A DNA stretch of 64,000 nucleotides from Escherichia coli (GCF_041886205.1 NZ_CP169029.1), one strand, 5' to 3'. Counted from the first letter of the stretch, positions 12,621 through 55,661 are shown. The notes: generated by a model from the sequence alone, not told the origin. Numbers and translations: made by a program.

Positions 12621-12630
12621 ACGTAATTGC

Positions 12631-12666
12631 CGGATGCGACGTACGAGTGTTACGCATGTCGCATCC
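12631..12666. terminator. inverted repeat (10-bp arms cggatgcgac / gtcgcatccg) between convergent recD and argA; candidate bidirectional terminator or REP-like element
   Basis: Read directly from sequence at 12631-12640 and 12657-12666; lies in the 61-bp gap between the two convergent stops. Confidence 0.45.
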
Positions 12667-12681
12667 GACGATTTTCATCGC

Positions 12682-14013
12682 TTACCCTAAATCCGCCATC
12701 AACACTTTGGATTTACGCTGGTAGTTGTACAACTGCTTTTTGCTCTCGGGCAGTAAATCAATATCCACTGGGGTAAATCCACGTTCCTGGAACCAGTGAA
12801 TACTGCGCGTGGTCAGCACAAACAATTTGCTTAAGCCGCTCTGCTTCGCCTGAGCGGCAATGCGTTCCAGCAGAACTTCACCCCTTGATGAACTGCGGTA
12901 ATCCGGGTGAACTGCCACACAGGCCATTTCCCCAATCTTCTCTTCCGGGAACGGATAGAGCGCGGCGCAGGCAATAGTCGTGTTATCGCGCTGAATAATG
13001 GTGAATTTGTCGATTTCCATCTCCAGCTGCTCGCGAGAACGGCGTACCAGAATACCTTGCTGCTCCAGTGGGCGAATCAACTCCAGAATACCGCCAATAT
13101 CGTTGATTGTTGCGCGACGAATCTGCTCGGCGCTTTCCATCACAATCTGCGTACCGATACCGTCGCGTGAGAACAACTCTTGCAACAGCGCGCCATCTTC
13201 CTGATAACTGATTAAATGACAGCGACGCACGCCGCTGCGGCAGGCTTTCACTGCGCCACGCAAAAAGCGCACCGTACCGGAGTTGTAATCGCCTTTCTCT
13301 TCCTGGGCTTCTACCCGCGCTTGCGCTTCGTTAGGGAAAAGTTCGGAGACAATATCACCGTCGTCATTAGTGACGCCCTGGGAAGAGCAAAAACCAATCA
13401 TCTTTTCAGCTTTCAGTTTGATGGCCAGTTGAGTGGCAATCTCTTCCGAGGTCAGGTTAAAGCTCTCGCCAGTGACTGAAACAGCGACCGGCCCCATTAG
13501 CACTATTGCACCGCTGTCCAGTTGACGATGGATCGCGTCTTCATCAATCCGCCGGATACGCCCGCTATGGCAGTAATCCACGCCGTCATCGACGCCCAGC
13601 GGCTGGGCAATAATAAAATTGCCACTGACGACGTTGATATGCGCGCCCTGCAGCGGCGTGTTATTGAGACTCATCGACAGGCGAGCAGTAATATCCAGTT
13701 GCAATGTTCCCGCAGCCTGCTTCACCAGTTCCAGTGTTTTGGCGTCGGTCACACGTATATTCTTGTGATACAGCGGTTCGTGGTGATGCGCAGCCAGATT
13801 TGCGTCGATCTGCGGACGTGCGCCATAGACCACCACCAGACGGATGCCGAGGCTGTGCAACAACCCGATATCATTAACGATACTGGAGAAATTCTCATGC
13901 TCAATGGCTTCACCGCCGAGCATGATGACAAACGTTTTTCCCCGGTGGGTATTGATATAGGGAACCGAATGGCGGAATCCCTCGACCAGCTCGGTTTTAC
14001 GTTCCTTTACCAC
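12682..14013 (-). CDS. argA: amino-acid N-acetyltransferase (N-acetylglutamate synthase), 443 aa, GTG start
   Basis: Minus-strand ORF 12682..14079; trimmed to the GTG at 14011-14013 to give [36 protein letters not shown], the known ArgA N-terminus. Confidence 0.94.
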
Positions 14014-14023
14014 GGCACACCTC

Positions 14024-14062
14024 TTTGCATGATTATTCGAAATTATTGTATTTTTATTCTGT
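14024..14062 (-). promoter_or_regulatory. candidate ArgR operator (tandem ARG-box-like sequence) at the argA promoter
   Basis: Minus-strand reading acagaataaaaatacaataatttcgaataatcatgcaaag directly upstream of the argA start resembles tandem 18-bp ARG boxes; argA is a known ArgR regulon member. Confidence 0.4.
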
Positions 14063-14244
14063 TTTTTCGCAGGGTGCAAGTGTAAATTTTATGCGAGAGC
14101 GACTTTTTTATCAGTAATGCCGTGAATATAAAAAGAATGTTTACCGTTTATTAGATGACAGATTATGCGTCTTTCGCTAAAGTTTCCGGTCAAATTAGTC
14201 GTTTACTTGTTACACAGCTTAGATTTCTTTTGCTCGGGAGAGGC

Positions 14245-15498
14245 ATGTCAGGATCCAACACTGCAATCAGCCGTCGTCGTTTACTGCAAGGCGCGGGTGC
14301 CATGTGGCTATTGAGCGTAAGTCAGGTCAGTCTGGCTGCGGTCAGCCAGGTCGTGGCGGTGCGCGTCTGGCCTGCGTCCAGCTACACCCGCGTGACGGTA
14401 GAATCAAATCGTCAGCTGAAATATAAGCAGTTCGCGTTGAGTAACCCGGAACGCGTGGTGGTGGATATCGAAGATGTAAACCTGAACTCGGTACTCAAGG
14501 GGATGGCGGCACAAATTCGTGCAGACGACCCGTTCATCAAGTCGGCGCGCGTCGGGCAATTTGACCCGCAAACCGTACGGATGGTTTTTGAATTAAAGCA
14601 AAACGTAAAACCGCAGCTGTTTGCCCTTGCGCCGGTCGCCGGGTTTAAAGAGCGTCTGGTGATGGACCTCTATCCGGCCAATGCACAGGATATGCAGGAC
14701 CCGCTGCTGGCGCTGCTGGAGGATTACAACAAAGGCGACCTCGAAAAGCAGGTGCCGCCAGCGCAAAGTGGTCCACAACCAGGTAAAGCAGGGCGCGATC
14801 GTCCGATTGTCATTATGCTTGACCCTGGCCACGGTGGCGAAGACTCCGGTGCGGTGGGGAAATACAAAACGCGCGAAAAAGACGTGGTATTGCAAATAGC
14901 TCGCCGTCTGCGCTCTCTGATCGAGAAAGAGGGCAATATGAAGGTGTACATGACGCGCAATGAAGACATCTTCATTCCGTTGCAAGTGCGCGTAGCAAAA
15001 GCCCAGAAACAGCGTGCTGACCTGTTTGTCTCTATCCATGCCGACGCCTTTACCAGTCGTCAGCCGAGCGGTTCCTCTGTGTTTGCGCTCTCAACCAAAG
15101 GTGCAACCAGTACTGCGGCAAAATATCTGGCACAAACCCAGAACGCCTCGGACTTGATTGGTGGCGTGAGCAAAAGCGGTGACCGCTATGTCGACCACAC
15201 CATGTTCGATATGGTGCAGTCGCTGACCATTGCTGACAGCCTTAAGTTTGGTAAAGCGGTACTGAATAAGCTCGGTAAAATCAACAAGCTGCATAAAAAT
15301 CAGGTTGAACAGGCCGGGTTTGCCGTACTAAAGGCACCAGATATTCCCTCCATTCTGGTCGAAACGGCGTTTATCAGTAACGTTGAGGAAGAGCGTAAAC
15401 TGAAAACGGCGACTTTCCAGCAGGAAGTTGCGGAGTCTATTCTTGCGGGAATTAAAGCGTATTTTGCCGATGGGGCGACGCTGGCGAGAAGGGGATGA
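14245..15498 (+). CDS. amiC: N-acetylmuramoyl-L-alanine amidase AmiC (417 aa, Tat signal)
   Basis: Internal ATG at 14245 (RBS gggagagg) gives [24 protein letters not shown]..., a twin-arginine signal; amidase_3 family; divergent from argA as in E. coli. Confidence 0.93.
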
Positions 15499-15507
15499 TG
15501 TTTTTAA

Positions 15508-15540
15508 TTTATTCAATGAATTTATGTTTCATTGAATAAA
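15508..15540. repeat. perfect 13-bp AT-rich inverted repeat (tttattcaatgaa / ttcattgaataaa, 7-nt loop) 10 bp after the amiC stop
   Basis: Read directly from sequence; lies at the left edge of the accessory island. Confidence 0.5.
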
Positions 15541-15689
15541 TATTATTTACATAAATGTTGAACGATGGTTTTGTGACTGCTGTCGAATATTTGAATATCG
15601 GCTTAAAAAATAAGCCTGTCATCTCTTTTATTAAGCACAATTCCGTGTAAGGTATACGCATTAGTTAATTATCTTGTAACTGTTAAATC

Positions 15690-15744
15690 AGGCAAGGCAA
15701 TGTTTGAAGTAATTATTACTTCTGACATGCCTTGCCTTTTTTTT
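15690..15744 (+). terminator. leader stem-loop plus U8 tract upstream of the antiterminator gene; candidate conditional (RAT-associated) terminator
   Basis: Outer stem aggcaaggca (15690-15699) pairs with tgccttgcct (15728-15737); inner palindrome gaagtaat-t-attacttc (15706-15722); followed by 8 T (15737-15744); ends 12 nt before RBS gggag and ATG 15757. Confidence 0.6.
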
Positions 15745-15756
15745 GGGAGCCATGGA

Positions 15757-16581
15757 ATGATCATCGAAAAAGTCATGAACAATAATTGTGTACAGGCATC
15801 GGTGAACGGACAGGAGGTTATCATTTCTGGGCCTGGCGTTGGTTACAATAAAAAATATGGTATGTCGGTCCCTGAGCATCCTGCAAACCGGATTTTTTAT
15901 GTCAGAAATGAGCAAAAAAATAAACTCTACAAATTGATTGAGCATGTGGGTATTGAGTATATTTTTGTTGCCGAAAAGATAGTGCATTATGCGGAGAGTA
16001 ATCTCGAAAAAAAACTCAATCCATCGCTACTACTGATTCTTGCTGATCACATTTCGAATGCAATATCCCGAGTCGTCTCAGGCATACAAATTAATAATGT
16101 TTTCCTTGAGGAAATCAAAGCGTTGTACAAAGCAGAGTATGCAATAAGTCGTGATGCATTAACAATCATTAATGAGCAATTTAGCGTTCAACTACCGGAT
16201 GATGAGATTGGTTTTATAGCATTGCATATTTTAAATAATTATGAAAATTCAGTTGATTATGAATCAGTAAGGATCATTGAGCTGTCTCAAAAAATCACGG
16301 AGCTTATTGAAGTTGTTTATAACAGAAGGGTGGACAGAAGTTCATTTAACTACTCCAGATTTATGATGCACCTTAAATATTTTTCTAGTCGTGTGTTATG
16401 TAATGAAAAAATAAAACAGAAAAATATTGGTGATATCTATGAGCAGTTTCTTGAAAAAGATTTTCAGTTACAACGTGCCATTCATGAAATTGAAAGATAT
16501 CTGTACGCAACTTTTAAATATGATTTGATTCTGGAAGAGAAACTATATCTTTCTATTCGCATCAAAGTATTAATGGACTAA
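15757..16581 (+). CDS. BglG/LicT-family transcriptional antiterminator (CAT RNA-binding domain + PRD domains), ~274 aa
   Basis: N-terminus MIIEKVMNNNCVQASVNGQEVIISGPGVGYNKK is the typical CAT-domain start; ATG 15757 is preferred over the track start 15700 because of RBS gggag and because 15700 lies inside the leader hairpin. Confidence 0.85.
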   Translation: MIIEKVMNNNCVQASVNGQEVIISGPGVGYNKKYGMSVPEHPANRIFYVRNEQKNKLYKLIEHVGIEYIFVAEKIVHYAESNLEKKLNPSLLLILADHISNAISRVVSGIQINNVFLEEIKALYKAEYAISRDALTIINEQFSVQLPDDEIGFIALHILNNYENSVDYESVRIIELSQKITELIEVVYNRRVDRSSFNYSRFMMHLKYFSSRVLCNEKIKQKNIGDIYEQFLEKDFQLQRAIHEIERYLYATFKYDLILEEKLYLSIRIKVLMD

Positions 16582-16612
16582 TTATACATAACATTTTCAT
16601 GAGATAACCAGT

Positions 16613-18193
16613 ATGAAACAAAAGAAAGCCTGGAGTTTTTTTCAGAGCCTGGGGAAGGCATTTATGTATCCCATCGCTCTGTTAAGTGTATGTGGTATGA
16701 TGTTAGGGCTGGGAAGTGGTTTAGCCAGCGATGATATGGGAAAATTCATTCCAGTGTTGGCTATTCCGTTAATTAAAACCATACTTGATTTTATTGTTAG
16801 CCTTGGTTTGTTTGCCTTCGTTAATTTACCTGTATTGTTTGCGATAGCTATACCTTTGGGATTATTAAAAGAGAAAGATGATAAAGCCTATGGCGCTTTT
16901 TCTGGCTTAATTGGCTTTATGGCGATGCATCTTGGAACGAACTTTTATCTTAAACAGCACGACTTATTGGTAGCTGCTGACCAAATGTCGACACATGGGC
17001 AAACCATCATACTCGGGATCCAGTCCTACAATACCAGCGTGTTGGGTGGGATTGTGGCAGGGTTATTAGTCGCCAGCATGTATAAAAAGATCGTTAACTT
17101 ACGTATTCCTGAATCATTAGGGTTTTATAGTGGCCCACGCCTTGTGCCTATCATTACACTGATTGTGATGAGTGGATTTGGTCTGTTCATTCCTTTTATC
17201 TGGCCGCCATTTTTCAATCTTTTCATGCTCATTGGTCACTGGATTTCAACTTCCGGTCCTGTTGGTTATTTCTTCTATGCTGTTGCCGAACGCGTGACGA
17301 TACCTTTTGGCTTAAATCACTTGGTGACATCAGTTTTCCGCTTTACCCCAATCGGCGGATCGGCAGTGATTGGCGGTGAAGAGTATTACGGCACCCTGAA
17401 CATGTTTATGGCATACGTCAAAGAGAATGCGGTCATTCCGCTGGATTTGGCGGGGAAAATGGAGCAGGGCAAACTGATGATTCAGTATGGTCTGGCTGGA
17501 GCCGCGCTGGCGATGTATCGCACTGCTCATGCTCAAAACAGAAGGGCTATCAAAGCATTGCTGATTTCCGGTGTGCTCACGGTAATTATTGGCGGCGTCA
17601 GCGAGCCGATTGAATTTCTGTTCTTATTTGTCAGCCCGCTGTTGTTTGTCTTCCATGCCTTTATGAATGGATTGGCTAACATGGTTCTGCCATATATGGG
17701 CGTGAAGATGGGCTTTACTGGCGATCTGATTCAATTTATTAGCTTTGGTGTCTTACGTGGCACAAGAACGGGATGGCCATTAGCGGTATGTGTTGAAGTG
17801 GCTTATTTCTTCATTTATTACTTTGTGTTCCGTTGGACCATTCTCAAATTTAACCTGATGACTGTAGGCCGTGAAGAGTCCAGTCCTGTCACGCTGAACG
17901 CTCACGAAGAAACTGCAATAGCTAACATCCCAGTTCATGATAAATCAGAGTTGCAGGCAGCGGAGCAAATGGTTAAGGCTCTGGGTGGTAAAGAAAATAT
18001 TAAATCACTGGATAATTGTGTAACTCGTTTGCGTTTAACTATCGCGGATATGGGATTGATAGATGAGGCTGCAATAAAAAGGGCCGGAGGAATTGCGGTT
18101 GTGAAACTTGATCAAAATACCTTACAAGTCATTATCGGTACAAAAGTCATCGCCCTACGTCGGGATATGGATAATTACATGGGGATATGTTGA
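16613..18193 (+). CDS. PTS system glucose-family EIICB component (MalX/PtsG-like), 526 aa, no EIIA domain
   Basis: Multi-span membrane domain followed by C-terminal EIIB with the cysteine motif NCVTRLRLTIADMG; N-terminus MKQKKAWSFFQSLGKAFMYPIALL resembles PtsG/MalX. Confidence 0.9.
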   Translation: MKQKKAWSFFQSLGKAFMYPIALLSVCGMMLGLGSGLASDDMGKFIPVLAIPLIKTILDFIVSLGLFAFVNLPVLFAIAIPLGLLKEKDDKAYGAFSGLIGFMAMHLGTNFYLKQHDLLVAADQMSTHGQTIILGIQSYNTSVLGGIVAGLLVASMYKKIVNLRIPESLGFYSGPRLVPIITLIVMSGFGLFIPFIWPPFFNLFMLIGHWISTSGPVGYFFYAVAERVTIPFGLNHLVTSVFRFTPIGGSAVIGGEEYYGTLNMFMAYVKENAVIPLDLAGKMEQGKLMIQYGLAGAALAMYRTAHAQNRRAIKALLISGVLTVIIGGVSEPIEFLFLFVSPLLFVFHAFMNGLANMVLPYMGVKMGFTGDLIQFISFGVLRGTRTGWPLAVCVEVAYFFIYYFVFRWTILKFNLMTVGREESSPVTLNAHEETAIANIPVHDKSELQAAEQMVKALGGKENIKSLDNCVTRLRLTIADMGLIDEAAIKRAGGIAVVKLDQNTLQVIIGTKVIALRRDMDNYMGIC

Positions 18194-19401
18194 TGGATAT
18201 TTTTAATACCTCAATTTCTCGTAAAGGAACATATTGCACACAATGGGACTTTTGTGAAGACAGATTTGGTGTAAAAGATGTATTACCATTCTCTATTTCA
18301 GATATGGATCTTCCGATACCGGAAGCTATCATCAGAACATTAAAAAAACGTCTGGAACACCCGATTTTAGGGTACAGTCGTTGGCAGCATGATGACTATC
18401 TGAATTCGATAGTCAATTGGTATCATCAACAATATAAAACAGAGATTCAACCAGAATGGATCACCTATAGCCCAAGCGTGATGTATTCAATATCTAAGGC
18501 AATAGAAATATTGACATTGAATGGAGATAATATTCTCATTTTCACGCCTGTTTATAACGCATTTTTTGATGTGATTAAGCATAATGGTCGAAACATGCTA
18601 ACAACCTCTTTGATGAAAGAAAATGGGAGAGGCTACGTTATCAACTGGCAAGACTTTGAGCTTAAAATTAAAAGCGCGAAGATGGTGTTATTATGTAATC
18701 CTCATAACCCGACAGGAACGGTCTGGTCGGAAGACGATCTTCACAGAATCGCAGCATGCTGTGCAAGGCATAATATTTGGTTATGTTCAGATGAAATACA
18801 TAGTGATTTTGTTTTTAATCATAGTTTCACGTCAGCGCTAACAATAAAAGATGACAAAGTGGTGGTGTTTAATTCGATTTCGAAAACATTTAATGTTCCT
18901 GCGCTAACCGGATCATATATGATTTCAACTGACGATAATTTTAATCATAAGTTCAGAACGATATCGAGGTATCGCGATTTCGTAAACTCCCCATCAGTAC
19001 TGAATGTAATTGCGACCATTGTTGCCTATAATGAATGTGAAGAATGGTTAAAGTCGTTAAAGGTACATATTGCCTCTAACATTCAATTTACTTTGCAGTA
19101 TTTAAATGAAAATATTCCGGAATTGATCGTATGGCCAGCTGAGGGCTGCTATTTTTCGTGGGTTGATTGCTCGGCCCTTGGTTATCCCTTTGATAAATTT
19201 TACCGTCGATTAATTAACGAAGGGAGAGTAGGTATTATGGCGGGGCATGTTTATGGTACTGAAGGAGAGGGCTATCTGCGTCTTAATCTGGCCTGCAGTC
19301 GAGAAAAATTATATATGGGGCTTGCGCGCCTTGCGAGTGTAATTAAAAATATTAATCAGGAAAAAGAAAATGAACAATACGGATCTTATCCATCTTATTA
19401 A
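18187..19401 (+). CDS. PLP-dependent aminotransferase class I/II fold protein, MalY/PatB-like cystathionine beta-lyase (C-S lyase), 404 aa
   Basis: N-terminal RKGTYCTQWDF...FGVKDVLPFSISDMDLP and the SISKTFN lysine motif are typical of MalY/PatB; start overlaps the PTS stop. Confidence 0.85.
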   Translation: MLMDIFNTSISRKGTYCTQWDFCEDRFGVKDVLPFSISDMDLPIPEAIIRTLKKRLEHPILGYSRWQHDDYLNSIVNWYHQQYKTEIQPEWITYSPSVMYSISKAIEILTLNGDNILIFTPVYNAFFDVIKHNGRNMLTTSLMKENGRGYVINWQDFELKIKSAKMVLLCNPHNPTGTVWSEDDLHRIAACCARHNIWLCSDEIHSDFVFNHSFTSALTIKDDKVVVFNSISKTFNVPALTGSYMISTDDNFNHKFRTISRYRDFVNSPSVLNVIATIVAYNECEEWLKSLKVHIASNIQFTLQYLNENIPELIVWPAEGCYFSWVDCSALGYPFDKFYRRLINEGRVGIMAGHVYGTEGEGYLRLNLACSREKLYMGLARLASVIKNINQEKENEQYGSYPSY

Positions 19402-19966
19402 ACGTTTTATGCGTAACGAACATAAAGCAGTAGAAGAGGTTATTGATTCCCCCCTTTCGGAAGTCGCGAATTTAATTAAAATATTACAATCTTGCCAGGG
19501 AAAAGTTGTTTTTATTGGTGTTGGGAAATCTGGCATTATTGCCAGAAAACTTGCTGCAACATTTGCCAGCACCGGAACTCCCTCGTTTTTTGTTCACGGT
19601 ACGGAAGCGGTACACGGCGACCTTGGGATGGTGGCGAAAGACGATGTTGTTATTCTTATTTCAAACAGTGGTGAGACGGCGGAAATCCTGGCGACACTGC
19701 CTAGTTTGAAAAAAATGGGTAATTATTTGATCTCTTTTACCCGCAGTCATCACTCATCGCTTGCGATAAGTTGTGATTTATCTGTTGAAATCCCCGTCAA
19801 AAGTGAGGCGGATAATTTAGGTTTAGCACCGTCATGCTCGTCTACTGTTGTTCTGGTTGTTGGTGATGCGGTGGCGCTTGCACTCTCTGAATTGAAAAAA
19901 TTTACTCGTGCTGATTTCGGCTTATATCATCCAGGAGGTGCACTCGGCATTAAAGCAAATTCATAA
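19370..19966 (+). CDS. single SIS-domain sugar-phosphate isomerase, KpsF/GutQ-like but lacking CBS domains (198 aa)
   Basis: VVFIGVGKSGIIARKLAATFASTGTPSFFVHGTEAVHGDLGMV...ILISNSGET matches the arabinose-5-phosphate isomerase SIS domain; overlaps the preceding gene by about 30 nt. Confidence 0.8.
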   Translation: MNNTDLIHLIKRFMRNEHKAVEEVIDSPLSEVANLIKILQSCQGKVVFIGVGKSGIIARKLAATFASTGTPSFFVHGTEAVHGDLGMVAKDDVVILISNSGETAEILATLPSLKKMGNYLISFTRSHHSSLAISCDLSVEIPVKSEADNLGLAPSCSSTVVLVVGDAVALALSELKKFTRADFGLYHPGGALGIKANS

Positions 19967-20037
19967 TTTCAAAGTATAAATACAGTAACCGGTCACGCCA
20001 TCTTTTGGGGTGGCGTTCATTGAAGTGAGTGTCAGCT

Positions 20038-20985
20038 ATGAAAAATGTTCTGGTCACCGTCCCCAACTTTTCAGCACGCTGTGTTTCCGCCAGCAAGTTG
20101 CTAAGAGAGAATAATTTTAATCTTATTATTAAGAATAATGTGGAGCATCTGCTTAAATCAGAATCCACTGCATTACGAGAATCTATTTGCGCGGTCATCG
20201 CCGGAAAAGATTGTTATCAGGCGGACACGCTATCATTGCTGCCTGGTGTGAAAATAATATCAAGATTCGGGACGGGGATAGATAATATTGATCTTCGTGC
20301 AGCACAACAATCCGGTATTGTAGTCAATAATGCGGTTGGGATTAATTCAAATGCTGTCGCGGAATTTATCATTGGACTTATCTTCGCGAGCATGAGAAAT
20401 ATTCCAGGCAGCTATCATGCGATGCAAAATGGCTACTGGGGTGAGTCGCATGGCTATGAATTACAAGGCAAACGGATTGGCATGGTTGGCTACGGCAATA
20501 TAGGTAAAACCCTGGCAAAAAGGTTATCCGGTTTTGATGTTGAGCTTTTAGCTTATGACAAACAACCCGATTATCAGGTTGCTGACAAAGTTGGAGTTCA
20601 GTTTGTATCAATTGAAGATATCTTTATGCAGTCGCATGTCATCATTGTTCTTTTGCCTTTTTCTCCTGAGCTGGAGAACTTCATTAGTCATAAATATTTG
20701 TCGATGATGCGCAATGGTGCTCTAATCATCAATGCCGCAAGGGGAAAGTTGCTGGATGAGGGCGCTTTACTACAGGTGATTGAAGAACGAAATGTGTTTG
20801 CGGCGCTGGATGTGTTTAGCTCTGAACCGTTGGCGCAATTTAGCCCACTGCTACATGCCAAAAATATCATTACAACGCCGCATATTGCGGCCGCCACCGT
20901 TGAGTCATACCAGCAAACCGGTACACACGTTGCCCAGTCGATAATTGATTACTTCGCAGGAAGGGAGATAAAAAACGTGTTGTGA
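20038..20985 (+). CDS. D-isomer-specific 2-hydroxyacid dehydrogenase family NAD-binding protein (~315 aa)
   Basis: Rossmann motif GKRIGMVGYGNIGKTLAKRL and the family pattern ...LLPFSPELENFIS...; ATG 20038 preferred over the GTG at 20029 (uncertain). Confidence 0.8.
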   Translation: MKNVLVTVPNFSARCVSASKLLRENNFNLIIKNNVEHLLKSESTALRESICAVIAGKDCYQADTLSLLPGVKIISRFGTGIDNIDLRAAQQSGIVVNNAVGINSNAVAEFIIGLIFASMRNIPGSYHAMQNGYWGESHGYELQGKRIGMVGYGNIGKTLAKRLSGFDVELLAYDKQPDYQVADKVGVQFVSIEDIFMQSHVIIVLLPFSPELENFISHKYLSMMRNGALIINAARGKLLDEGALLQVIEERNVFAALDVFSSEPLAQFSPLLHAKNIITTPHIAAATVESYQQTGTHVAQSIIDYFAGREIKNVL

Positions 20986-21011
20986 GTTCAGCGAACGAAG
21001 TTTTTAAATAC

Positions 21012-21047
21012 AAAAAAACCGCAATTTGTGGAACACATTGCGGTTTA
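21012..21047 (-). terminator. rho-independent terminator of the tRNA-fMet operon (8-bp GC-containing stem followed by U7 on the minus strand)
   Basis: Stem accgcaat (21018-21025) pairs with attgcggt (21037-21044); the plus-strand A7 at 21012-21018 reads as U7 after the hairpin on the minus strand; 17 bp from the metV 3' end. Confidence 0.7.
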
Positions 21048-21063
21048 TCAGCATTCTAAGTAT

Positions 21064-22665: not shown

Positions 22666-22741
22666 TGTGATATTCTGTATACCGTTTTGACGGATACGAT
22701 AGGGTGAGGGATAACCTCGCCCTTTTTAATTCTGAGGTGCT

Positions 22742-23548: not shown

Positions 23549-23555
23549 ACAATCA

Positions 23556-23587
23556 GGTCGGATGAGACGCGAACGTCTTATCCGACC
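23556..23587. terminator. 14-bp-arm inverted repeat (ggtcggatgagacg / cgtcttatccgacc, 1 mismatch) between convergent tcdA and csdE; bidirectional terminator or REP-like
   Basis: Read directly from sequence between the two convergent stop codons. Confidence 0.5.
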
Positions 23588-23598
23588 CGGTTCTGTGC

Positions 23599-25682: not shown

Positions 25683-25888
25683 AAAAAAAAGCACCGCAAT
25701 TAGGCGGTGCTACATTAATCACTATGGACAGACAGGGTAAATGTACAGGAAGTGAAAAAAGGTAGCTTTGCTACCATGGTCTGAATCGCAGACCAATTGC
25801 AAACACAACAACACAACATCACAACCGTAAGCCAAAAGTTCACCAGAACACGCATTCCGATAAAACTTTTCGTTCCGGCTCAGGAAGT
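25683..25888 (-). ncRNA. gcvB: GcvB small regulatory RNA (~206 nt), divergent from gcvA
   Basis: Minus-strand reading starts ACTTCCTGAGCCGGAACGAAAAGTTTTATCGGAATG, contains the GU-rich TGTGATGTTGTGTTGTGTTTGCAATTGGTCTG region, and ends with hairpin GCACCGCCTAATTGCGGTGC plus U8. Confidence 0.9.
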
Positions 25889-28441: not shown

Positions 28442-28447
28442 CAGGCA

Positions 28448-28471
28448 AGGCCGGGGCGTCGTCTCCGGCCT
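28448..28471. terminator. GC-rich hairpin (aggccgg / ccggcct, 10-nt loop) between convergent rlmM and fucR
   Basis: Read directly from sequence, 7 nt after the rlmM stop. Confidence 0.5.
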
Positions 28472-28484
28472 GCTACCCTTTCCG

Positions 28485-31116: not shown

Positions 31117-31224
31117 AATCGCTCCTGCAATATAGCCGGATAACATTGCTTATCCGGCTAACCACTCTTGCTTGTTCAGGCCCGGTAGCCGGAGCGACCG
31201 GGCATCACATCAGGGAGTAATGTA

Positions 31225-34969: not shown

Positions 34970-34972
34970 ATT

Positions 34973-36980: not shown

Positions 36981-37032
36981 AAAATTGGGGATGAATTTTC
37001 ATCCCCGTTATCTCCAGCGTCAGGGAGGCTTT

Positions 37033-38613
37033 ATGCACAACGGTTATTTTCTCGGTGTCGATGTCGGATCGGCCAGTGTCAGGGCAGGCGTTTACAGTGC
37101 CAGTGGCCACAGGCTGGCATTCGCTACTGCGCCCGTCTCCCAGTTTCGCCCTGGCGGCGAGCGTGTCGAACAGTCTTCGGCAGAGATCTGGCAACAAGTT
37201 TGTAAAACGGTGAAAGAGGCGACAGCTTTGGCAGGCATCCCCATTTCCGCAATTCGCTCACTGGGTTTTGACGCTACCTGCTCGCTGGTTGTTCTTGATG
37301 AACAAGGCCAGGGTTTAGCGGTTTCGTCCGGTGGATCTGCGAATCACGACATTATTATGTGGATGGATCATCGTGCAACTGTCGAGACGGCGCAGATTAA
37401 CGCAATGAAGGATCCCGCATTGCGCTACGTTGGCGGCGAAGTGAGCGTCGAGATGGAGTTACCAAAGTTACGTTGGTTGAAGACGCATCTACCGCAAACC
37501 TGGCAGGCCGCTCATCGCTTTTTCGATCTGGCGGATTTTCTGGTCTGGAAAGCAACAGGGCGAGACGTCGCGGGATTATGCACGCTAACGTGTAAATGGA
37601 ATTATCTAGCTCATGAGCAACGCTTTAGCCATAGCTTACTGGAATCGATAGACCTGACCGATATGCTTGAAAGAATTCCTGCCAACATTCTTCCGCCTGG
37701 CGCTGCCGTGGGAACGTTAACCGCCACAGCTGCTGAAGAGTTAGGATTAACGACTAATGTTATCGTGGCCAGTGGCTTGATTGATGCCCATGCCGGTGGC
37801 GTGGCGCTGGCTGGCGCTCACCCATCAGGAACGCTGGCATTGATAAGCGGAACGTCGAACTGCCATATGCTGTGTAGTGAAAAAGAGATATTCACCCCTG
37901 GCGTCTGGGGGCCATACTGGTCGGCCATGTTGCCAAATTACTGGCTAACCGAAGGCGGGCAAAGCGCCGCAGGGGCGCTGGTGGAGTGGACGCTTCAGGA
38001 GTCAGGGGCAAGCGCAAATCTTTTTCACAAGGCGCAGCAACGCGGATGTCATCCGATTCAACTGATTAATGAATGGGTAGCAGCCCTTGAAGCTAACGAG
38101 TCAGAACCCACACGAAATTTACATGTGCTTGCCGATCATCACGGCAACCGTTCGCCACGAGCGCGGCCCGATGCCAGAGGCAGTGTTTATGGCTTAACAC
38201 TGGAGCGTGGTGAAAATCAGCTCGCGCGACTTTATCTTGCGACTTTACAGGCAATAGCCTTTGGCACCAGACATATTATTGAAACTCTGCGGGAAAATGG
38301 GCATACCATTACCCGATTAACATTATGTGGTGGTGCAACGCACAACCCTTTATGGCTACGCGAATATGCAGACGTGACAGGTTGCGATATCCACCTGATG
38401 CAAGAAGAAGATGCCGTTACGTTGGGCGCAGCAATTAGCGGCGCTGTTGCCAGCGGAGCATGGGGGGATTTTACATCTGCGTGTAAAGCAATGGTTGAAG
38501 CCGGAGAGATTATTCAGGTAAATCCACAACGCCGTGAATTTTTAGAGCGTAAATACCGGGTTTACCTGACGCTTTGGGAGCAACAACAGGCGGTTAACCA
38601 ACTGATGCAATAA
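37033..38613 (+). CDS. FGGY-family carbohydrate kinase, pentulose-kinase-like subgroup (~526 aa)
   Basis: Internal ATG at 37033 (RBS cagggagg) gives MHNGYFLGVDVGSASVRAGVY, the FGGY N-terminal motif; GTSNCHM motif mid-protein; the track ORF start at 36913 overlaps the binding-protein gene. Confidence 0.87.
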   Translation: MHNGYFLGVDVGSASVRAGVYSASGHRLAFATAPVSQFRPGGERVEQSSAEIWQQVCKTVKEATALAGIPISAIRSLGFDATCSLVVLDEQGQGLAVSSGGSANHDIIMWMDHRATVETAQINAMKDPALRYVGGEVSVEMELPKLRWLKTHLPQTWQAAHRFFDLADFLVWKATGRDVAGLCTLTCKWNYLAHEQRFSHSLLESIDLTDMLERIPANILPPGAAVGTLTATAAEELGLTTNVIVASGLIDAHAGGVALAGAHPSGTLALISGTSNCHMLCSEKEIFTPGVWGPYWSAMLPNYWLTEGGQSAAGALVEWTLQESGASANLFHKAQQRGCHPIQLINEWVAALEANESEPTRNLHVLADHHGNRSPRARPDARGSVYGLTLERGENQLARLYLATLQAIAFGTRHIIETLRENGHTITRLTLCGGATHNPLWLREYADVTGCDIHLMQEEDAVTLGAAISGAVASGAWGDFTSACKAMVEAGEIIQVNPQRREFLERKYRVYLTLWEQQQAVNQLMQ

Positions 38614-38677
38614 GACAAAAGTTGAAAATACTTTTATGATTGTGATTTGACGTCTGGATGTTAACTGGGAAATACCT

Positions 38678-39676
38678 ATGGCTAAAACAGTAGAGCAGAT
38701 AGCCAGCGACCTGAATTTATCGGTTACGACCGTGCGACTGGTGCTAAATGGAAAAGCGGAACAATATCGAATCAGCGTCAAAACCCAAACGCGTATCAAT
38801 GAATATGTTGAACGCTATGGTTATATCATTAATCATTCCGCTCGCAGCCTTAAGCTTAACAAAACTGATACATTAGGGTTGATTGTTCCCAACATATCCA
38901 ACGTCTTTTTTGCTACGCTGGCAGAAAAACTCGAACAACGCTGTCGACGTTCCGGATATCAACTTACAATCAGTTGCACTTATGATGATGTTGACTATGA
39001 AAATAAATTGACGAAAGCATTTATCGCACGAAATGTAGATGGTCTTTTTATTGTTCCTTCGACGCTGGAAAATCAGCAGCATCATTTACGCAAAATTCGT
39101 AAGCCCATGGTTTTACTCGATCGTGATTTTAAATATACCGATAACGCATTGGTAGAGAGTAATAATATTTCTGGCGGAGAAAAGCTGACGCAAAATATTC
39201 TTGAGGCCGGGCAGACTCCAGTATGGTTTTTGCTGGGAGATGCCGGTTTGCCGAGTATCAGCGATCGTCTGACAGGTTATTTGAATGCGTTGGCAAAAAA
39301 AGGGATTACCCATCGCGATTGGGTGCGGGAAGGTCCGGTAAATACTCCGGAAGGCGGCTATGTCATTATGGAAAAACTCATTGAAGAGCAGGGATGTCCG
39401 CAGGCATTTATCGCCTCGTCTTTGCCTGTGCTTGAAGGCGCTGTCCGCGCGATTCGCGACCGTCTTGGCGCTGTACCGCCAGAAATCAATATTGGCACTT
39501 TCGATGAACATCCTATGCTGGGATTTCTCGCCAACAATGTCTGGTCAATGCAGCAGGATGAAAATGCCTGGGCAGAAAAAGCGTTCGAAATGATGTTAAG
39601 CGCGATCGAAGAAAGACCAGTCAAAAAAACAGTTAAAGTAGAAATGAAATTAATTAAGCGCATAAGAAAAAAATAA
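38678..39676 (+). CDS. LacI/GalR-family transcriptional regulator (332 aa)
   Basis: N-terminal HTH region followed by a periplasmic-binding-protein-like sugar-binding fold (LGLIVPNISNVFFATLAEKLE). Confidence 0.88.
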   Translation: MAKTVEQIASDLNLSVTTVRLVLNGKAEQYRISVKTQTRINEYVERYGYIINHSARSLKLNKTDTLGLIVPNISNVFFATLAEKLEQRCRRSGYQLTISCTYDDVDYENKLTKAFIARNVDGLFIVPSTLENQQHHLRKIRKPMVLLDRDFKYTDNALVESNNISGGEKLTQNILEAGQTPVWFLLGDAGLPSISDRLTGYLNALAKKGITHRDWVREGPVNTPEGGYVIMEKLIEEQGCPQAFIASSLPVLEGAVRAIRDRLGAVPPEINIGTFDEHPMLGFLANNVWSMQQDENAWAEKAFEMMLSAIEERPVKKTVKVEMKLIKRIRKK

Positions 39677-39808
39677 TAATCGCCAAAAGATATCAGGCTA
39701 CTGAACAATGATATTCAGTGGCCTCCCCTTACTAAAAATAACCCCGTCTTCATTTGCGGTGCTGTTTTACGCAACAAGGCGAGCTGAAACTGTATCTGGA
39801 GAATAGAA

Positions 39809-40456
39809 ATGGAAAGAACACGTTTATCCCGTGAAATAATTGAAACCTGTCTGGAAATGACGCGCCTTGGGTTAAATCAGGGGACAGCGGGGAATGTCAG
39901 CACACGTTTTGAAAACGGCATGTTGATTACTCCCAGCGGTATTCCTTATGAAAGAATGACGGAGAATATGATTGTCTATGTTGATGGCAACGGCAAATAC
40001 GAAGAAGGTAAGATTCCTTCCAGCGAGTGGCGTTTCCATATGGCAGCCTATCAAAGCAGACCGGATGCCAACGCGGTTGTTCACAATCATGCCGTTCATT
40101 GCACGGCAGTTTCCATTCTTAACCGACCGATCCCCGCTATTCACTACATGATTGCGGCGGCGGGCGGTAATTCTATTCCTTGCGCGCCTTATGCGACCTT
40201 TGGAACACGTGAACTTTCTGAACATGTTGCGCTGGCTCTCAAAAATCGTAAGGCAACTTTGTTACAACATCATGGGCTTATCGCTTGTGAGGTGAATCTG
40301 GAAAAAGCGTTATGGCTGGCGCATGAAGTTGAAGTGCTGGCGCAACTTTACCTGACGACCCTGGCGATTACGGACCCGGTGCCAGTGCTGAGCGATGAAG
40401 AGATTGCCGTAGTGCTGGAGAAATTCAAAACCTATGGGTTACGGATTGAAGAGTAA
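39809..40456 (+). CDS. fucA: L-fuculose-phosphate aldolase (class II aldolase, 215 aa); N-terminal ~70 residues appear divergent from the K-12 allele
   Basis: 215 aa; residues from about 75 onward (SSEWRFHMAAYQSRPDANAVVHNHAVHCTAVSIL...KFKTYGLRIEE) match E. coli FucA as recalled; the N-terminal part carries many substitutions. Confidence 0.9.
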   Translation: MERTRLSREIIETCLEMTRLGLNQGTAGNVSTRFENGMLITPSGIPYERMTENMIVYVDGNGKYEEGKIPSSEWRFHMAAYQSRPDANAVVHNHAVHCTAVSILNRPIPAIHYMIAAAGGNSIPCAPYATFGTRELSEHVALALKNRKATLLQHHGLIACEVNLEKALWLAHEVEVLAQLYLTTLAITDPVPVLSDEEIAVVLEKFKTYGLRIEE

Positions 40457-41632: not shown

Positions 41633-41650
41633 ATGCGCTGATGTGATAAT

Positions 41651-41683
41651 GCCGGATACGACGCTAGCCGCGTCTTATCCGGC
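41651..41683. repeat. REP-like palindromic element (gccggatacgacg / cgtcttatccggc) downstream of fucO
   Basis: Read directly from sequence between convergent fucO and xni; matches the E. coli REP family pattern GCCGGATA...TATCCGGC. Confidence 0.6.
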
Positions 41684-41736
41684 ATATAAGTGCATTAAAT
41701 TCAATGTGTTGATAATCGTTTGCATACGGCACGTCG

Positions 41737-51012: not shown

Positions 51013-51064
51013 TATGTTCAGCGAGCGGTAAATGCCGTTTTAGCGGTGCTGAATCGAATCTTTT

Positions 51065-51121
51065 CAGGCAAATGCCAGTAAAAACTGCTTCATAGCGCGG
51101 ATTTTTACTGGCGTTTGCCTG
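51065..51121. repeat. 20-bp-arm inverted repeat (caggcaaatgccagtaaaaa / tttttactggcgtttgcctg, 1 mismatch, 17-nt loop) downstream of yqcA
   Basis: Read directly from sequence; about 50 bp after the yqcA stop. Confidence 0.5.
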
Positions 51122-51446
51122 GAGTCAAGCGATCCATTTCATACTCTTCTTTATTTCTTCGTTTTTACCCTTCCTTTCTTGTTCTTGTTTTCATTTCCGT
51201 GAAGTGGATTCCACCGTCCAGGGCTAATGCCAAAATCGGGCCTCATTGAACGCATTAATGTTGTGTTGTTGCACGGTGAGCCGCTATGGCGCGCTTTTTA
51301 TACTGCTATTGCCAGATATAAACACGCGCCGTATTCGGCGAACGACCTATAAAAACGGCAAAAAACACCCTACGTCACCTCTGATTTCCTGGCGATGTCG
51401 CAGTCCAGAGTGAGCGTGGCTAACGCGAATTTTCAGGAGTGCAACA

Positions 51447-54141: not shown

Positions 54142-54161
54142 TTCTGAAAAAGGACATAAAT

Positions 54162-55502
54162 ATGAGTTCTCAATTTACGACGCCTGTTGTTACTGAAATG
54201 CAGGTCATCCCGGTGGCGGGTCATGACAGTATGCTGATGAATCTGAGTGGTGCACACGCACCGTTCTTTACGCGTAATATTGTGATTATCAAAGATAATT
54301 CTGGTCACACTGGCGTAGGGGAAATTCCCGGCGGCGAGAAAATCCGTAAAACGCTGGAAGATGCGATTCCGCTGGTGGTAGGTAAAACGCTGGGTGAATA
54401 CAAAAACGTTCTGACGCTGGTGCGTAATACTTTTGCCGATCGTGATGCTGGTGGGCGCGGTTTGCAGACATTTGATTTGCGTACCACTATTCATGTAGTT
54501 ACCGGGATAGAAGCGGCAATGCTGGATCTGCTGGGGCAGCATCTGGGGGTAAACGTGGCATCCCTGCTGGGCGATGGTCAACAGCGTAGCGAAGTCGAAA
54601 TGCTCGGTTATCTGTTCTTCGTCGGTAATCGCAAAGCCACACCGCTGCCGTATCAAAGCCAGCCGGATGACTCATGCGACTGGTATCGCCTGCGTCATGA
54701 AGAAGCGATGACGCCGGATGCGGTGGTGCGCCTGGCGGAAGCGGCGTATGAAAAATATGGCTTCAACGATTTCAAACTGAAAGGCGGTGTACTGGCCGGG
54801 GAAGAAGAAGCCGAGTCTATTGTGGCACTGGCGAAACGTTTCCCGCAGGCGCGTATTACGCTCGATCCTAACGGTGCCTGGTCGCTGAACGAAGCGATTA
54901 AAATTGGTAAATACCTGAAAGGGTCGCTGGCTTATGCAGAAGATCCGTGTGGTGCGGAGCAAGGTTTCTCCGGGCGTGAAGTGATGGCAGAGTTCCGTCG
55001 CGCGACTGGCCTGCCGACTGCAACCAATATGATCGCCACCGACTGGCGGCAGATGGGCCATACACTCTCGTTACAATCCGTTGATATCCCGCTGGCGGAT
55101 CCGCATTTCTGGACGATGCAAGGTTCGGTACGTGTGGCGCAAATGTGCCATGAATTTGGCCTGACCTGGGGTTCACACTCAAACAACCACTTCGATATTT
55201 CCCTGGCGATGTTTACCCATGTTGCCGCCGCTGCACCGGGTAAAATTACTGCTATTGATACGCACTGGATCTGGCAGGAAGGTAATCAGCGCCTGACCAA
55301 AGAACCGTTTGAGATCAAAGGCGGGCTGGTACAGGTGCCAGAAAAACCGGGGCTGGGTGTAGAAATCGATATGGATCAAGTGATGAAAGCCCATGAGCTG
55401 TATCAGAAACACGGGCTTGGCGCGCGTGACGATGCGATGGGAATGCAGTATCTGATTCCTGGCTGGACGTTCGATAACAAGCGCCCGTGCATGGTGCGTT
55501 AA
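54162..55502 (+). CDS. gudD: D-glucarate dehydratase GudD (enolase superfamily, 446 aa)
   Basis: Internal ATG at 54162 gives [32 protein letters not shown]; overlaps the gudX stop region. Confidence 0.94.
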
Positions 55503-55514
55503 GACAGAAAACCA

Positions 55515-55540
55515 AAACCGGCTCTGTCAGGAGCCGGTTT
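55515..55540 (+). terminator. hairpin aaaccggctc / gagccggttt (6-nt loop) 13 nt after the gudD stop; candidate gudPXD terminator
   Basis: Perfect 10-bp inverted repeat read from sequence; followed by ttt. Confidence 0.55.
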
Positions 55541-55564
55541 GAGACTGATGCCAAACACAAAATT

Positions 55565-55593
55565 GCCTGATGCGCTACGCTTATCAGGCCTAC
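55565..55593. repeat. REP element (GCCTGATGCGCTACGCTTATCAGGCCTAC)
   Basis: Classical E. coli REP consensus read directly from sequence in the gudD-barA convergent intergenic region. Confidence 0.8.
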
Positions 55594-55626
55594 ATGCTTT
55601 TTAATTTATTGAATTTAATTGGTTTT

Positions 55627-55661
55627 GTAGGCCGGATAAGGCGTTAACGCCGCATCCGGCA
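55627..55661. repeat. REP element (GTAGGCCGGATAAGGCGTTAACGCCGCATCCGGCA); forms a BIME-like pair with the preceding REP
   Basis: Second REP in inverted orientation 33 bp from the first. Confidence 0.8.

What the first reader, a model, noticed from the sequence alone, without database searches (positions are those of the whole stretch)
12629..55661. REP / inverted-repeat elements mark most convergent gene junctions
Palindromic elements occur at recD/argA (12631-12666), tcdA/csdE (23556-23587), rlmM/fucR (28448-28471), fucO/xni (41651-41683) and gudD/barA (55565-55593 and 55627-55661, a BIME-like pair). They are consistent with bidirectional terminators and REP sequences typical of E. coli, and support a native enterobacterial core background outside the two accessory modules.
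Basis: seen in the sequence. Interest (0 to 1): 0.15.

Follow-up and report, generated by a model that had tools for sequence, protein, structure and literature searches.

The report
Decayed REP repeats between convergent genes
The palindromes between convergent genes in this E. coli stretch are real. Most are ordinary, partly decayed copies of the well-known REP/BIME repeat family, and they more likely cap RNA ends than stop transcription.

Summary
The window is the E. coli recC–mazG region. Five of the six belong to the REP family:
- gudD/barA holds a textbook y + z-type pair with GTAG/CTAC tails and a 33-nt linker carrying an IHF-like site, i.e. a BIME-1.
- tcdA/csdE and fucO/xni are dispersed REPs (about 24 and at least 36 places per genome) whose CTAC tails have mutated.
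- recD/argA is single-copy. Longer alleles and a sister Escherichia lineage suggest it is the outer arms of a collapsed REP pair.

The rlmM/fucR hairpin is single-copy and fails the REP tests (p = 0.04).

"Bidirectional terminator" is not supported for the REPs. None has a U-tract. Published K-12 Term-seq and bicyclomycin data show no strong 3′ end at any REP, and Rho-dependent regions lie 300–560 nt downstream in four directions.

Most likely these are selfish repeats lodged in permissive junctions that act as exonuclease barriers in RNA. This is already known biology and of low interest.

The parts
12625..12673 (.). recD/argA palindrome: REP-type arms GCCGGATGCGACG (12629-12641) and GTCGCATCCGAC (12657-12669) around a 15-nt centre. 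It has no GTAG/CTAC tail and no stem mismatch. It lies 4-8 nt from the recD stop and 8-12 nt from the argA stop.
   Evidence: Sequence. Fold of -25 and -28.4 kcal/mol on the two strands. One place per genome in 5,261 genomes. Strain M25631H has 20 extra bases, and Escherichia-clade locus L010 has a full REP with CTAC plus a second decayed REP at this junction. Gapped alignment to the REP consensus gives p = 0.005.
23551..23592 (+). tcdA/csdE REP (core 23556-23587): GGTCGGATGAGACG-CGAA-CGTCTTATCCGACC. The foot pair is T-A instead of C-G. The tail is CCGG, where the common allele has CTGG and the canonical form is CTAC. It lies 2-7 nt from the tcdA stop and 6-11 nt from the csdE stop.
   Evidence: Sequence. 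Fold of -27.4 and -25 kcal/mol. Median 24 places per genome. Alleles. Alignment p <= 0.001. csdE and tcdA overlap or abut in 40 of 53 other Enterobacteriaceae species.
28444..28474 (.). rlmM/fucR GC-rich hairpin (core stem 28449-28456 / 28463-28470). It is single-copy, is not a demonstrable REP, and has no U-tract.
   Evidence: Sequence. Fold. One place per genome, with 4,178 records at least 99% identical. Alignment p = 0.04. The K-12 Term-seq 3' end of rlmM maps to window 28478, with 32-47 thousand reads in three conditions.
31135..31158 (.). fucI/fucK mini-palindrome GCCGGATAAC-ATTG-CTTATCCGGC: a REP foot only, with a GTTAG flank on the minus strand. It lies 18 nt upstream of the fucK start.
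   Evidence: Pattern hit. Fold z = -3.6. One place per genome, with 4,910 records at least 99% identical. Tail match with 2 mismatches. Alignment p = 0.08.
41649..41685 (+). fucO/xni REP (core 41651-41683): GCCGGATACGACGC-TAGCC-GCGTCTTATCCGGC. The tail is ATAT, decayed from CTAC. It lies 16 nt from the fucO stop.
   Evidence: Sequence. Median 36 places per genome, capped at 40. The strain MS20645 allele keeps ...TTATCCGGCCTAC. Alignment p <= 0.001.
41688..41731 (.). Remainder of a degenerate BIME-1-like unit at fucO/xni. It comprises a linker sharing ATTAAATTCAAT with the gudD/barA linker, an exact IHF consensus TATCAACACATTG (41702-41714, minus strand), and a decayed inverted REP GTTGATAATCGTTTGCATACGGCA (about 41708-41731) ending 5 nt before the xni stop codon.
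   Evidence: IHF scan: 8 exact matches in the whole window on both strands. The comparison of the linker and the decayed REP with the gudD/barA BIME is my direct reading. The long allele is in about 29% of E. coli records and the short K-12-type in about 69%.
55515..55540 (.). Terminator-like hairpin 12 nt after the gudD stop. It has an A-tract on the 5' side and UUUUGGUUUU after it on the minus (barA) strand.
   Evidence: Terminator scan: 10-pair stem with 6 GC pairs. Folds with z = -3.7 and -2.8.
55565..55593 (+). y-type REP GCCTGATGCGCTACGCTTATCAGGC followed by CTAC (55590-55593). It is intact here and decayed in K-12.
   Evidence: Sequence. Comparison with K-12. Exact match to TTATCMGGCCTAC. 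Definition in PMC3333891.
55594..55626 (.). 33-nt L-type linker of the BIME-1, with the IHF-like site ATTCAATAAATTA (55602-55614, minus strand; 12 of 13 consensus positions).
   Evidence: IHF scan. The linker recurs at up to 5 places per genome at about 80% identity. BIME-1 description.
55627..55661 (+). z-type REP in inverse orientation: GTAG (55627-55630) + GCCGGATAAGGCGTTAACGCCGCATCCGGC + A.
   Evidence: Sequence. Scores 63 of 68 against the published consensus, corresponding to 33 of 34 bases by my count. The 601-bp junction matches a median of 22 places per genome by megablast.
25690..25711 (.). gcvB terminator hairpin at the ygdI/gcvB convergent junction. It is a non-REP bidirectional terminator, included for contrast.
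   Evidence: Terminator scan. Rfam GcvB match. K-12 Term-seq 3' ends on both strands: ygdI at 2942869/70 with up to 1.16 million reads, and gcvB at 2942894.
21016..21046 (.). A-tract/hairpin/U-tract structure at the convergent junction between the last gene of accessory module 1 and tRNA-Met metV. It is non-REP and included for contrast.
   Evidence: Sequence. Folds with z = -2.0 and -3.6. No similarity to the REP consensus, p = 0.99.

Best explanation
The elements are members and relics of the E. coli REP/BIME repeat family, plus one hairpin that cannot be shown to be REP.

Shown:
- gudD/barA carries an intact BIME-1: a y REP, a 33-nt L linker with an IHF-like site, and a z-type REP, with the CTAC and GTAG tetranucleotides facing the linker.
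- fucO/xni carries a decayed unit of the same kind.
- tcdA/csdE carries a solo REP with a mutated tail.
- recD/argA is consistent with the two outer arms of a REP pair that lost its middle.
- rlmM/fucR carries a single-copy GC hairpin.

Inferred:
- The repeats were spread by the REP-associated tyrosine transposase. They persist at convergent junctions because insertion there breaks no promoter.
- In RNA they fold on both strands and do not terminate transcription themselves. RNA polymerase reads through into the antisense of the opposite gene, Rho terminates a few hundred nucleotides on, and 3'-to-5' exonucleases trim back to the hairpin. The hairpin therefore sets and protects the steady-state 3' end of both convergent transcripts.
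- Four genes (recD, argA, tcdA, csdE) have the hairpin within 15 nt of the stop codon. At that distance REPs are reported to stall terminating ribosomes and lower translation.
- The two L linkers probably bind IHF in DNA.
For: Identity:
- Exact GTAG/CTAC tails and the y and z-type sequences.
- The REP and BIME-1 definitions in PMC3333891 and the published consensus in PMC12306157.
- Dispersal of 22, 24 and at least 36 places per genome.
- Gapped alignment to the consensus versus 1000 shuffles: p <= 0.001 for three junctions and 0.005 for recD/argA, against 0.5-0.99 for five control hairpins.
- Allele series that restore canonical features: MS20645 keeps CCTAC at fucO/xni, and the common tcdA/csdE allele keeps GATGCGACGC...GCGTCTTATC.
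- At recD/argA, M25631H and the Escherichia-clade locus L010 show one or two fuller REPs.

Not terminators:
- No U-tracts.
- K-12 Rho regions at 2932367(+), 2940539(+), 2939843(-) and 2945321(+), each antisense to the opposite gene.

Barrier model:
- Dar and Sorek 2018 found that Rho-dependent transcripts end at stable stem-loops without U-tracts, and 24% of those are REPs.
- The rlmM 3' end lies 4 nt after the extended stem.

Permissive site:
- csdE and tcdA overlap or abut in 40 of 53 related species.
- Presence/absence and long/short alleles exist within E. coli.

The rule of fewer than 16 nt is from PMC12306157, citing Liang 2015.
Against: - No transcript data exist for this strain. The Term-seq and bicyclomycin data are from K-12. 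K-12 is identical at the rlmM/fucR junction, but it differs from the window at fucO/xni and within the y REP.
- K-12 Term-seq reports no 3' end at three of the four REP junctions, so the barrier role is not demonstrated there. Low expression is an alternative reason.
- The one 3' end at a REP (csdE) lies inside the 5' arm, which the barrier model does not predict.
- Rho regions are located only to within about 800 nt.
- The three decayed REPs lack GTAG and two lack the full stem mismatch. By the in-vitro rules of PMC3333891 they are probably no longer transposase substrates.
- IHF binding was not tested.
- The recD/argA element is single-copy by BLAST, so its REP descent rests on three alleles.
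Confidence: 0.75

Rival explanations
1. The palindromes are bidirectional intrinsic (Rho-independent) terminators that stop both convergent transcripts at the hairpin.
For: - All fold stably on both strands.
- The rlmM/fucR hairpin coincides with the strongest mapped 3' end of the region, 4 nt after the extended stem, in three growth conditions.
- Other convergent junctions in the window do use A-tract/hairpin/U-tract structures.
Against: - No REP, and not the rlmM/fucR hairpin either, is followed by a U-rich tract on either strand.
- Bicyclomycin-sensitive readthrough regions lie beyond four of the hairpins.
- No Term-seq 3' ends were called at recD/argA, fucO/xni or gudD/barA.
- gudD has its own separate terminator-like hairpin.
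Confidence: 0.1
2. The decayed elements are functionless relics of past REP insertions. They drift neutrally in the only intergenic space that tolerates them.
For: - GTAG/CTAC tails are lost, and internal deletions and long/short or present/absent alleles occur within E. coli.
- An IS1414 insertion in the fucO/xni REP is tolerated.
- Most related species have no spacer at all between csdE and tcdA.
- 13 of 77 species have fewer than 20 bp between argA and recD.
Against: - Pairing survives the decay. The tcdA/csdE foot changed C-G to T-A on both arms, and this state is shared with a lineage 92% identical in argA.
- The collapsed recD/argA element keeps 12 complementary pairs.
- 57 of 77 species keep some stable hairpin between argA and recD, although its sequence differs by genus.
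Confidence: 0.3
3. Their main role is at the DNA level, as protein-binding sites (IHF at BIME-1 linkers, gyrase, Pol I) that organise the chromosome.
For: - An IHF consensus lies in both linkers: 12 of 13 positions at 55602-55614, and an exact match at 41702-41714, with only 8 exact matches in 64 kb.
- BIME-1 linkers frequently carry an IHF site.
- Gyrase cleavage is enriched at BIME-2.
Against: - This applies at most to two of the five junctions.
- The window has no BIME-2 (tandem y/z2 repeats).
- Binding was not tested, and no IHF ChIP table could be read.
Confidence: 0.25

Closest known systems
E. coli REP (palindromic unit) sequences, types y, z1 and z2 (Stern 1984; Bachellier 1999; Ton-Hoang 2012, PMC3333891)
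   Same: Extragenic 30-40-nt imperfect palindromes with a GCCKGATG...TATCMGGC core. The gudD/barA pair has the GTAG/CTAC tetranucleotide and the two-base stem mismatch. The tcdA/csdE and fucO/xni elements are dispersed at tens of places per genome.
   Different: Three of the five REP-family elements have lost GTAG/CTAC. The recD/argA element has no stem mismatch, an unusually long centre, and is single-copy. The fucI/fucK element keeps only the foot.
BIME-1 (also called RIP or RIB): z1 + long L linker with an IHF site + y, single copy
   Same: At gudD/barA: a y and a z-type REP in inverse orientation with tails facing a 33-nt linker, an IHF-like site, a single copy, and a linker that recurs elsewhere at about 80% identity. 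At fucO/xni: a REP plus a homologous linker with an exact IHF consensus.
   Different: The fucO/xni unit has a mutated tail and a heavily decayed second REP. The z1-versus-z2 assignment rests on architecture and on my recollection of the type consensus, because the defining figure could not be read.
Protective 3' stem-loops of Rho-dependent transcripts (Dar and Sorek 2018, PMC6061677)
   Same: Stable hairpins without U-tracts just after stop codons, with Rho-dependent regions mapped downstream in K-12.
   Different: Here one hairpin would serve both convergent transcripts. Direct 3'-end evidence exists only for rlmM, which is the non-REP hairpin.
Bidirectional intrinsic terminators at convergent genes
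   Same: Location between convergent genes, and a hairpin that folds on both strands.
   Different: The REPs lack the flanking A-tract and U-tract. The window's real examples are other elements (25690-25711, 21016-21046, 55515-55540).

Membership tests
E. coli REP (y/z1/z2) | Extragenic imperfect palindrome of about 30-40 nt | tested here: met
   Met for 12629-12669 (41 nt), 23556-23587 (32), 41651-41683 (33), 55565-55593 (29) and 55627-55661 (35), all intergenic. The elements at 28448-28471 and 31135-31158 are only 24 nt.
E. coli REP (y/z1/z2) | Conserved GTAG immediately 5' of the palindrome foot (CTAC on the other strand) | tested here: not met
   Present only in the gudD/barA pair (55590-55593 CTAC; 55627-55630 GTAG). 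Absent at recD/argA, tcdA/csdE (CCGG), fucO/xni (ATAT) and rlmM/fucR. Other alleles or lineages keep or approach it: MS20645 has CCTAC at fucO/xni, L010 has CCTAC at argA/recD, and the common tcdA/csdE allele has CCTGG.
E. coli REP (y/z1/z2) | Two-base mismatch in the stem (GC opposite TT), needed for TnpA-REP binding | tested here: inconclusive
   My direct reading against the rule. It is present in the y and z-type REPs. One mismatch remains at fucO/xni (C·T) and at tcdA/csdE (G·T), and the common tcdA/csdE allele has both. It is absent at recD/argA, where both arms are GATGCG-type.
E. coli REP (y/z1/z2) | Many dispersed copies per genome | tested here: inconclusive
   Median places per genome: gudD/barA junction 22, tcdA/csdE 24, fucO/xni 36. 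recD/argA, rlmM/fucR and fucI/fucK each have 1. BLAST needs about 19 matching bases in a row, so elements with unique centres can be missed.
E. coli REP (y/z1/z2) | Similarity to the published consensus GCCGGATGCGGCGTGAACGCCTTATCCGGCCTAC beyond chance | tested here: met
   Gapped local alignment versus 1000 dinucleotide shuffles of each junction: gudD/barA, tcdA/csdE and fucO/xni p <= 0.001; recD/argA 0.005; rlmM/fucR 0.04; fucI/fucK 0.08; five control hairpins 0.5-0.99. With a stricter scoring scheme, only the z-type REP and tcdA/csdE exceed all shuffled windows.
E. coli REP (y/z1/z2) | Recognised and cleaved by the REP-associated transposase (TnpA-REP/RAYT) | not testable with these tools
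   Requires biochemistry. No transposase gene is annotated in the window.
BIME-1 | One y and one z1 REP in inverse orientation | tested here: met
   The y REP at 55565-55593 and the z-type REP at 55627-55661 are on opposite orientations with tails facing inward (I13, 80). The z1 label rather than z2 is inferred from architecture and the consensus.
BIME-1 | Long, conserved L linker that frequently carries an IHF site | tested here: met
   The linker is 33 nt. It recurs at up to 5 places per genome at about 80% identity. ATTCAATAAATTA matches WATCAANNNNTTR at 12 of 13 positions. Binding itself was not tested.
BIME-1 | Single copy at the locus, not a tandem array | tested here: met
   There is one y and one z-type REP in the 232-bp junction.
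Bidirectional intrinsic terminator | Hairpin flanked by an A-tract 5' and a U-tract 3', so that each strand reads hairpin + U-run | tested here: not met
   The terminator scan reports none of the REPs or the rlmM/fucR hairpin as a full hairpin followed by a T-run. Its only match at these sites is a 5-pair sub-stem inside the recD/argA right arm (12657-12670). It does report 55540-55515(-), 25711-25690(-) and 22701-22723(+).
Bidirectional intrinsic terminator | Rho-independent 3' ends mapped just after the hairpin on both strands | tested here: not met
   Published K-12 data only. There is a strong 3' end after the rlmM side of the rlmM/fucR hairpin, a weak 3' end inside the tcdA/csdE REP, and none at the other three junctions. 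Rho regions lie downstream in four directions. These data are not from this strain.

The most novel reading that the evidence does not exclude
The tail-less palindromes wedged into the tightest convergent junctions (recD/argA here, and the short K-12-type allele at fucO/xni) are collapsed REP pairs. Internal deletion removed the facing GTAG/CTAC tails and inner arms, leaving the two outer arms to pair with each other. Such a product would no longer be a substrate for the REP transposase. It would be retained because one hairpin within 15 nt of both stop codons caps both convergent mRNAs and tunes their translation termination.
Probability: 0.3. Interest if true: 0.3.

Novelty: already known. 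Interest (0 to 1): 0.1.

Why it matters
It matters little beyond annotation. REP and BIME elements, their preference for the 3' ends of genes, and their variability between strains have been described since the 1980s and 1990s.

There are two practical points:
- A palindrome between convergent genes should not be annotated as a bidirectional terminator without a U-tract or 3'-end data. Here the genuine terminator-like hairpins are other elements.
- Decayed REPs can fail a consensus search yet be recognised from allele series across genomes. These series also give a small, testable picture of how REP pairs erode into single hairpins.

Tried and rejected
- A fixed-length REP consensus recalled from memory found nothing at up to 6 mismatches. 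It could not absorb the variable loop length, so I replaced it with a two-half pattern and with the consensus as printed in PMC12306157.
- A strict local alignment (+2/-3) to that consensus separated only the z-type REP and tcdA/csdE from shuffled windows. A gapped scheme with per-junction shuffles was more informative.
- The RefSeq K-12 record in the collection lists no REP features in this region, so annotation could not be used as a check.
- Rfam has no matching family. Only CsrB, GcvB and three tRNAs were found.
- Supplement look-ups gave nothing for RepRanger, Dar and Sorek and the IHF ChIP paper. Liang 2015 is not held, so its rule is cited second-hand from PMC12306157.
- I considered calling the rlmM/fucR hairpin a REP relic. 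Its arm GCCGGAGACGACG is one mismatch from the REP arm pattern, and Citrobacter has REP right-arm remnants at the same junction. I rejected this as a claim because p is only 0.04 and the element is single-copy.
- The direction of change between the long and short fucO/xni alleles could not be resolved.

Full report
**What the window is.** The window is the E. coli chromosome from recC to mazG, in reverse orientation relative to K-12 MG1655 coordinates 2.91-2.96 Mb. Gene order and names were checked against K-12 and against strain LHM10-1, which is essentially identical over 25 kb. Their spacers are 61 bp (recD/argA), 50 bp (tcdA/csdE), 43 bp (rlmM/fucR), 104 bp (fucO/xni) and 232 bp (gudD/barA). 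Counting RNA genes there are two more convergent junctions: ygdI/gcvB, and the last gene of accessory module 1 against tRNA-Met metV.

- The palindromes are at the stated positions.
- Four of them are among the six best short-range inverted repeats of the whole window.
- The junctions fold better than dinucleotide shuffles on both strands.
- A two-half REP pattern gives 14 strand-specific matches at 10 distinct sites, against 1.7 matches per shuffle. Six sites are palindromic intergenic elements and four are non-palindromic matches in coding or flanking sequence.
- REP-family elements lie in 4 of 7 convergent junctions and in 1 of 45 other junctions (p = 6e-4).

**Are they REPs?** I used the definition in Ton-Hoang et al. 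2012: a 30-40-nt imperfect palindrome, GTAG 5' of the foot, a two-base stem mismatch, and types y, z1 and z2. I also used the consensus printed in Murashko et al. 2025. The results by junction are as follows.

- **gudD/barA.** The pair is canonical. GCCTGATGCGCTACGCTTATCAGGC+CTAC is a y REP. GTAG+GCCGGATAAGGCGTTAACGCCGCATCCGGC scores 63 of 68 against the consensus, which I count as 33 of 34 bases. The two tails face a 33-nt linker. The linker carries a 12-of-13 match to the IHF consensus and recurs elsewhere in E. coli genomes at about 80% identity. That is the BIME-1 architecture.
- **tcdA/csdE.** The element matches a median of 24 places per genome.
- **recD/argA, rlmM/fucR and fucI/fucK.** Each matches exactly one place per genome.

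Gapped alignment to the consensus against 1000 shuffles gave these results:

| Junction | p |
|---|---|
| gudD/barA | ≤ 0.001 |
| tcdA/csdE | ≤ 0.001 |
| fucO/xni | ≤ 0.001 |
| recD/argA | 0.005 |
| rlmM/fucR | 0.04 |
| fucI/fucK | 0.08 |
| five unrelated hairpins (controls) | 0.5-0.99 |

**Allele series explain the non-canonical features.**

- **fucO/xni.** Strain MS20645 still reads ...TTATCCGGCCTAC, where MLI106K2 has GGCGTAT and the window has GGCATAT. So the tail has simply mutated. The window allele continues with a linker that shares ATTAAATTCAAT with the gudD/barA linker (my reading). It also contains an exact IHF consensus, one of only 8 in 64 kb. After that comes a decayed inverted REP that ends 5 nt before the xni stop codon. 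This makes it a degenerate BIME-1-like unit. The long allele is in about 29% of E. coli records. About 69%, including K-12, have a single 30-nt palindrome in a 54-bp spacer.
- **tcdA/csdE.** The commonest allele keeps the canonical GATGCGACGC...GCGTCTTATC with both stem mismatches. The window has one change that removes a mismatch.
- **recD/argA.** Both arms are of the GATGCG type, there is no stem mismatch and no tail. About 13% of genomes align over less than 80% of the element. One such strain, M25631H, has 20 extra bases that restore a decayed right arm and tail of one REP next to the right arm of a second, inverted REP. A sister Escherichia lineage (locus L010, 92% identical in argA) has a full REP with CCTAC followed by a decayed second REP at this junction. 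The simplest reading is that the window element is the two outer arms of a REP pair that lost its middle. This is an inference from three alleles.

**What the neighbours show.** One scan with ArgA recovered 80 Enterobacteriaceae loci.
- csdE and tcdA overlap or abut in 40 of 53 species. One case checked by eye (Enterobacter cloacae) shows the two stop codons inside a shared TCAGGCCTGA. The REP there is therefore a derived insertion in the Escherichia/Citrobacter group.
- Between argA and recD, 57 of 77 species have a stable hairpin, but its sequence differs from genus to genus. Thirteen species have fewer than 20 bp.
- So hairpins are favoured but dispensable and replaceable at these sites. 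Within E. coli, REPs come and go. K-12 has a BIME-1 between mltA and tcdA where the window has an empty site. K-12 also has a decayed y REP at gudD/barA where the window's is intact.

**Are they terminators?** The evidence says no for the REPs.
- None is followed by a T-run on either strand.
- The structures that do have an A-tract, hairpin and U-tract are different elements: 55515-55540 next to the gudD stop, the gcvB terminator 25690-25711, and 21016-21046 next to metV.
Term-seq calls a strong 3' end for rlmM at 2940106(-), which is window 28478, 4 nt after the extended stem of the non-REP hairpin, in all three conditions.
- It calls a weak 3' end for csdE at 2945008(+), which lies inside the 5' arm of the REP.
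- It calls none at recD/argA, fucO/xni or gudD/barA.
- The bicyclomycin experiment places Rho-dependent regions 300-560 nt beyond the hairpins. They are antisense to fucO (transcripts from xni), rlmM (from fucR), fucR (from rlmM) and tcdA (from csdE).
- These positions are approximate, and the data are from K-12, not this strain.

**Most likely mechanism.** This is inferred.
- Transcription from each side reads through the hairpin into the antisense of the opposite gene. Rho terminates it there, and exonucleases trim back to the hairpin.
- This is the model Dar and Sorek 2018 proposed for U-tract-less stem-loops. In their data 24% of such stem-loops were REPs.
- Because the palindrome folds on both strands, one element can cap both convergent mRNAs.
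- recD, argA, tcdA and csdE have the hairpin 2-12 nt from their stop codons. REPs closer than 16 nt are reported to stall terminating ribosomes and lower translation (citing Liang 2015, which I could not read).
- The two L linkers are candidate IHF sites.
- Gyrase binding is documented for BIME-2, and the window has none.

**Comparison with what is known, and verdict.** Everything here fits described REP/BIME biology, including strain-to-strain polymorphism. It is wrong about bidirectional termination. The only mildly new idea is the collapsed-pair origin of tail-less junction palindromes. It needs a proper phylogeny.

Noticed in passing
window 15500-21061: Accessory module 1 lies between the amiC stop and metV, where K-12 has only 70 bp. 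It encodes a PRD-domain antiterminator, a PTS EIIC, a MalY/PatB-family enzyme, a SIS-domain isomerase and a phosphoglycerate-dehydrogenase-like protein. A perfect 14-nt inverted repeat (15507-15541) sits at its left edge. A hairpin plus T-run (15685-15748) sits just upstream of the PRD gene and looks like an antiterminator-controlled leader.
   Followed up: partly
window 33013-39829: Accessory module 2 (three ABC sugar-transporter genes, an FGGY kinase and a LacI regulator) replaces fucP and the fucA-fucP control region of K-12. The start of the adjoining fucA gene (39830-39997) is only about 76% identical to K-12 at the DNA level. Both modules occur together in only 106 of 5,426 E. coli genomes.
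   Followed up: partly
window 22666-22741; K-12 locus L001 35844-36081: K-12 carries a full BIME-1 (z1, linker, y) between mltA and tcdA, flanked by two copies of the mltA terminator hairpin. The window has the uninterrupted single hairpin, i.e. an empty site. K-12 Term-seq puts a strong 3' end after the hairpin copy nearest tcdA.
   Followed up: partly
locus L006 2620-3960 (strain cS100a): An IS1414 (IS256-like) element is inserted in the right arm of the K-12-type fucO/xni REP, with an 8-bp duplication TATCCGGC.
   Followed up: partly
window 23576 (minus strand): The K-12 Term-seq 3' end for csdE maps inside the 5' arm of the REP, 2-3 nt before the loop, rather than after the hairpin. It has about 1.7 thousand reads in two conditions. 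It might be a ribosome-stall cleavage product or an artefact.
   Followed up: no
window 28444-28478: The rlmM/fucR hairpin has the strongest 3' end of the region although it lacks a U-tract. Its minus-strand arm GCCGGAGACGACG is one mismatch from the REP arm pattern, and Citrobacter has REP right-arm remnants at the same junction. It may be a very old REP relic.
   Followed up: partly
window 51050-51136: The longest short-range inverted repeat of the window has 35-nt arms, 77% complementarity and a 17-nt spacer. It lies in the yqcA-gudP spacer upstream of gudP and is possibly a regulatory site.
   Followed up: no
loci L011-L089, csdE/tcdA junction: In 40 of 53 Enterobacteriaceae species csdE and tcdA overlap or abut. 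In Enterobacter cloacae the two stop codons share the palindrome TCAGGCCTGA.
   Followed up: partly
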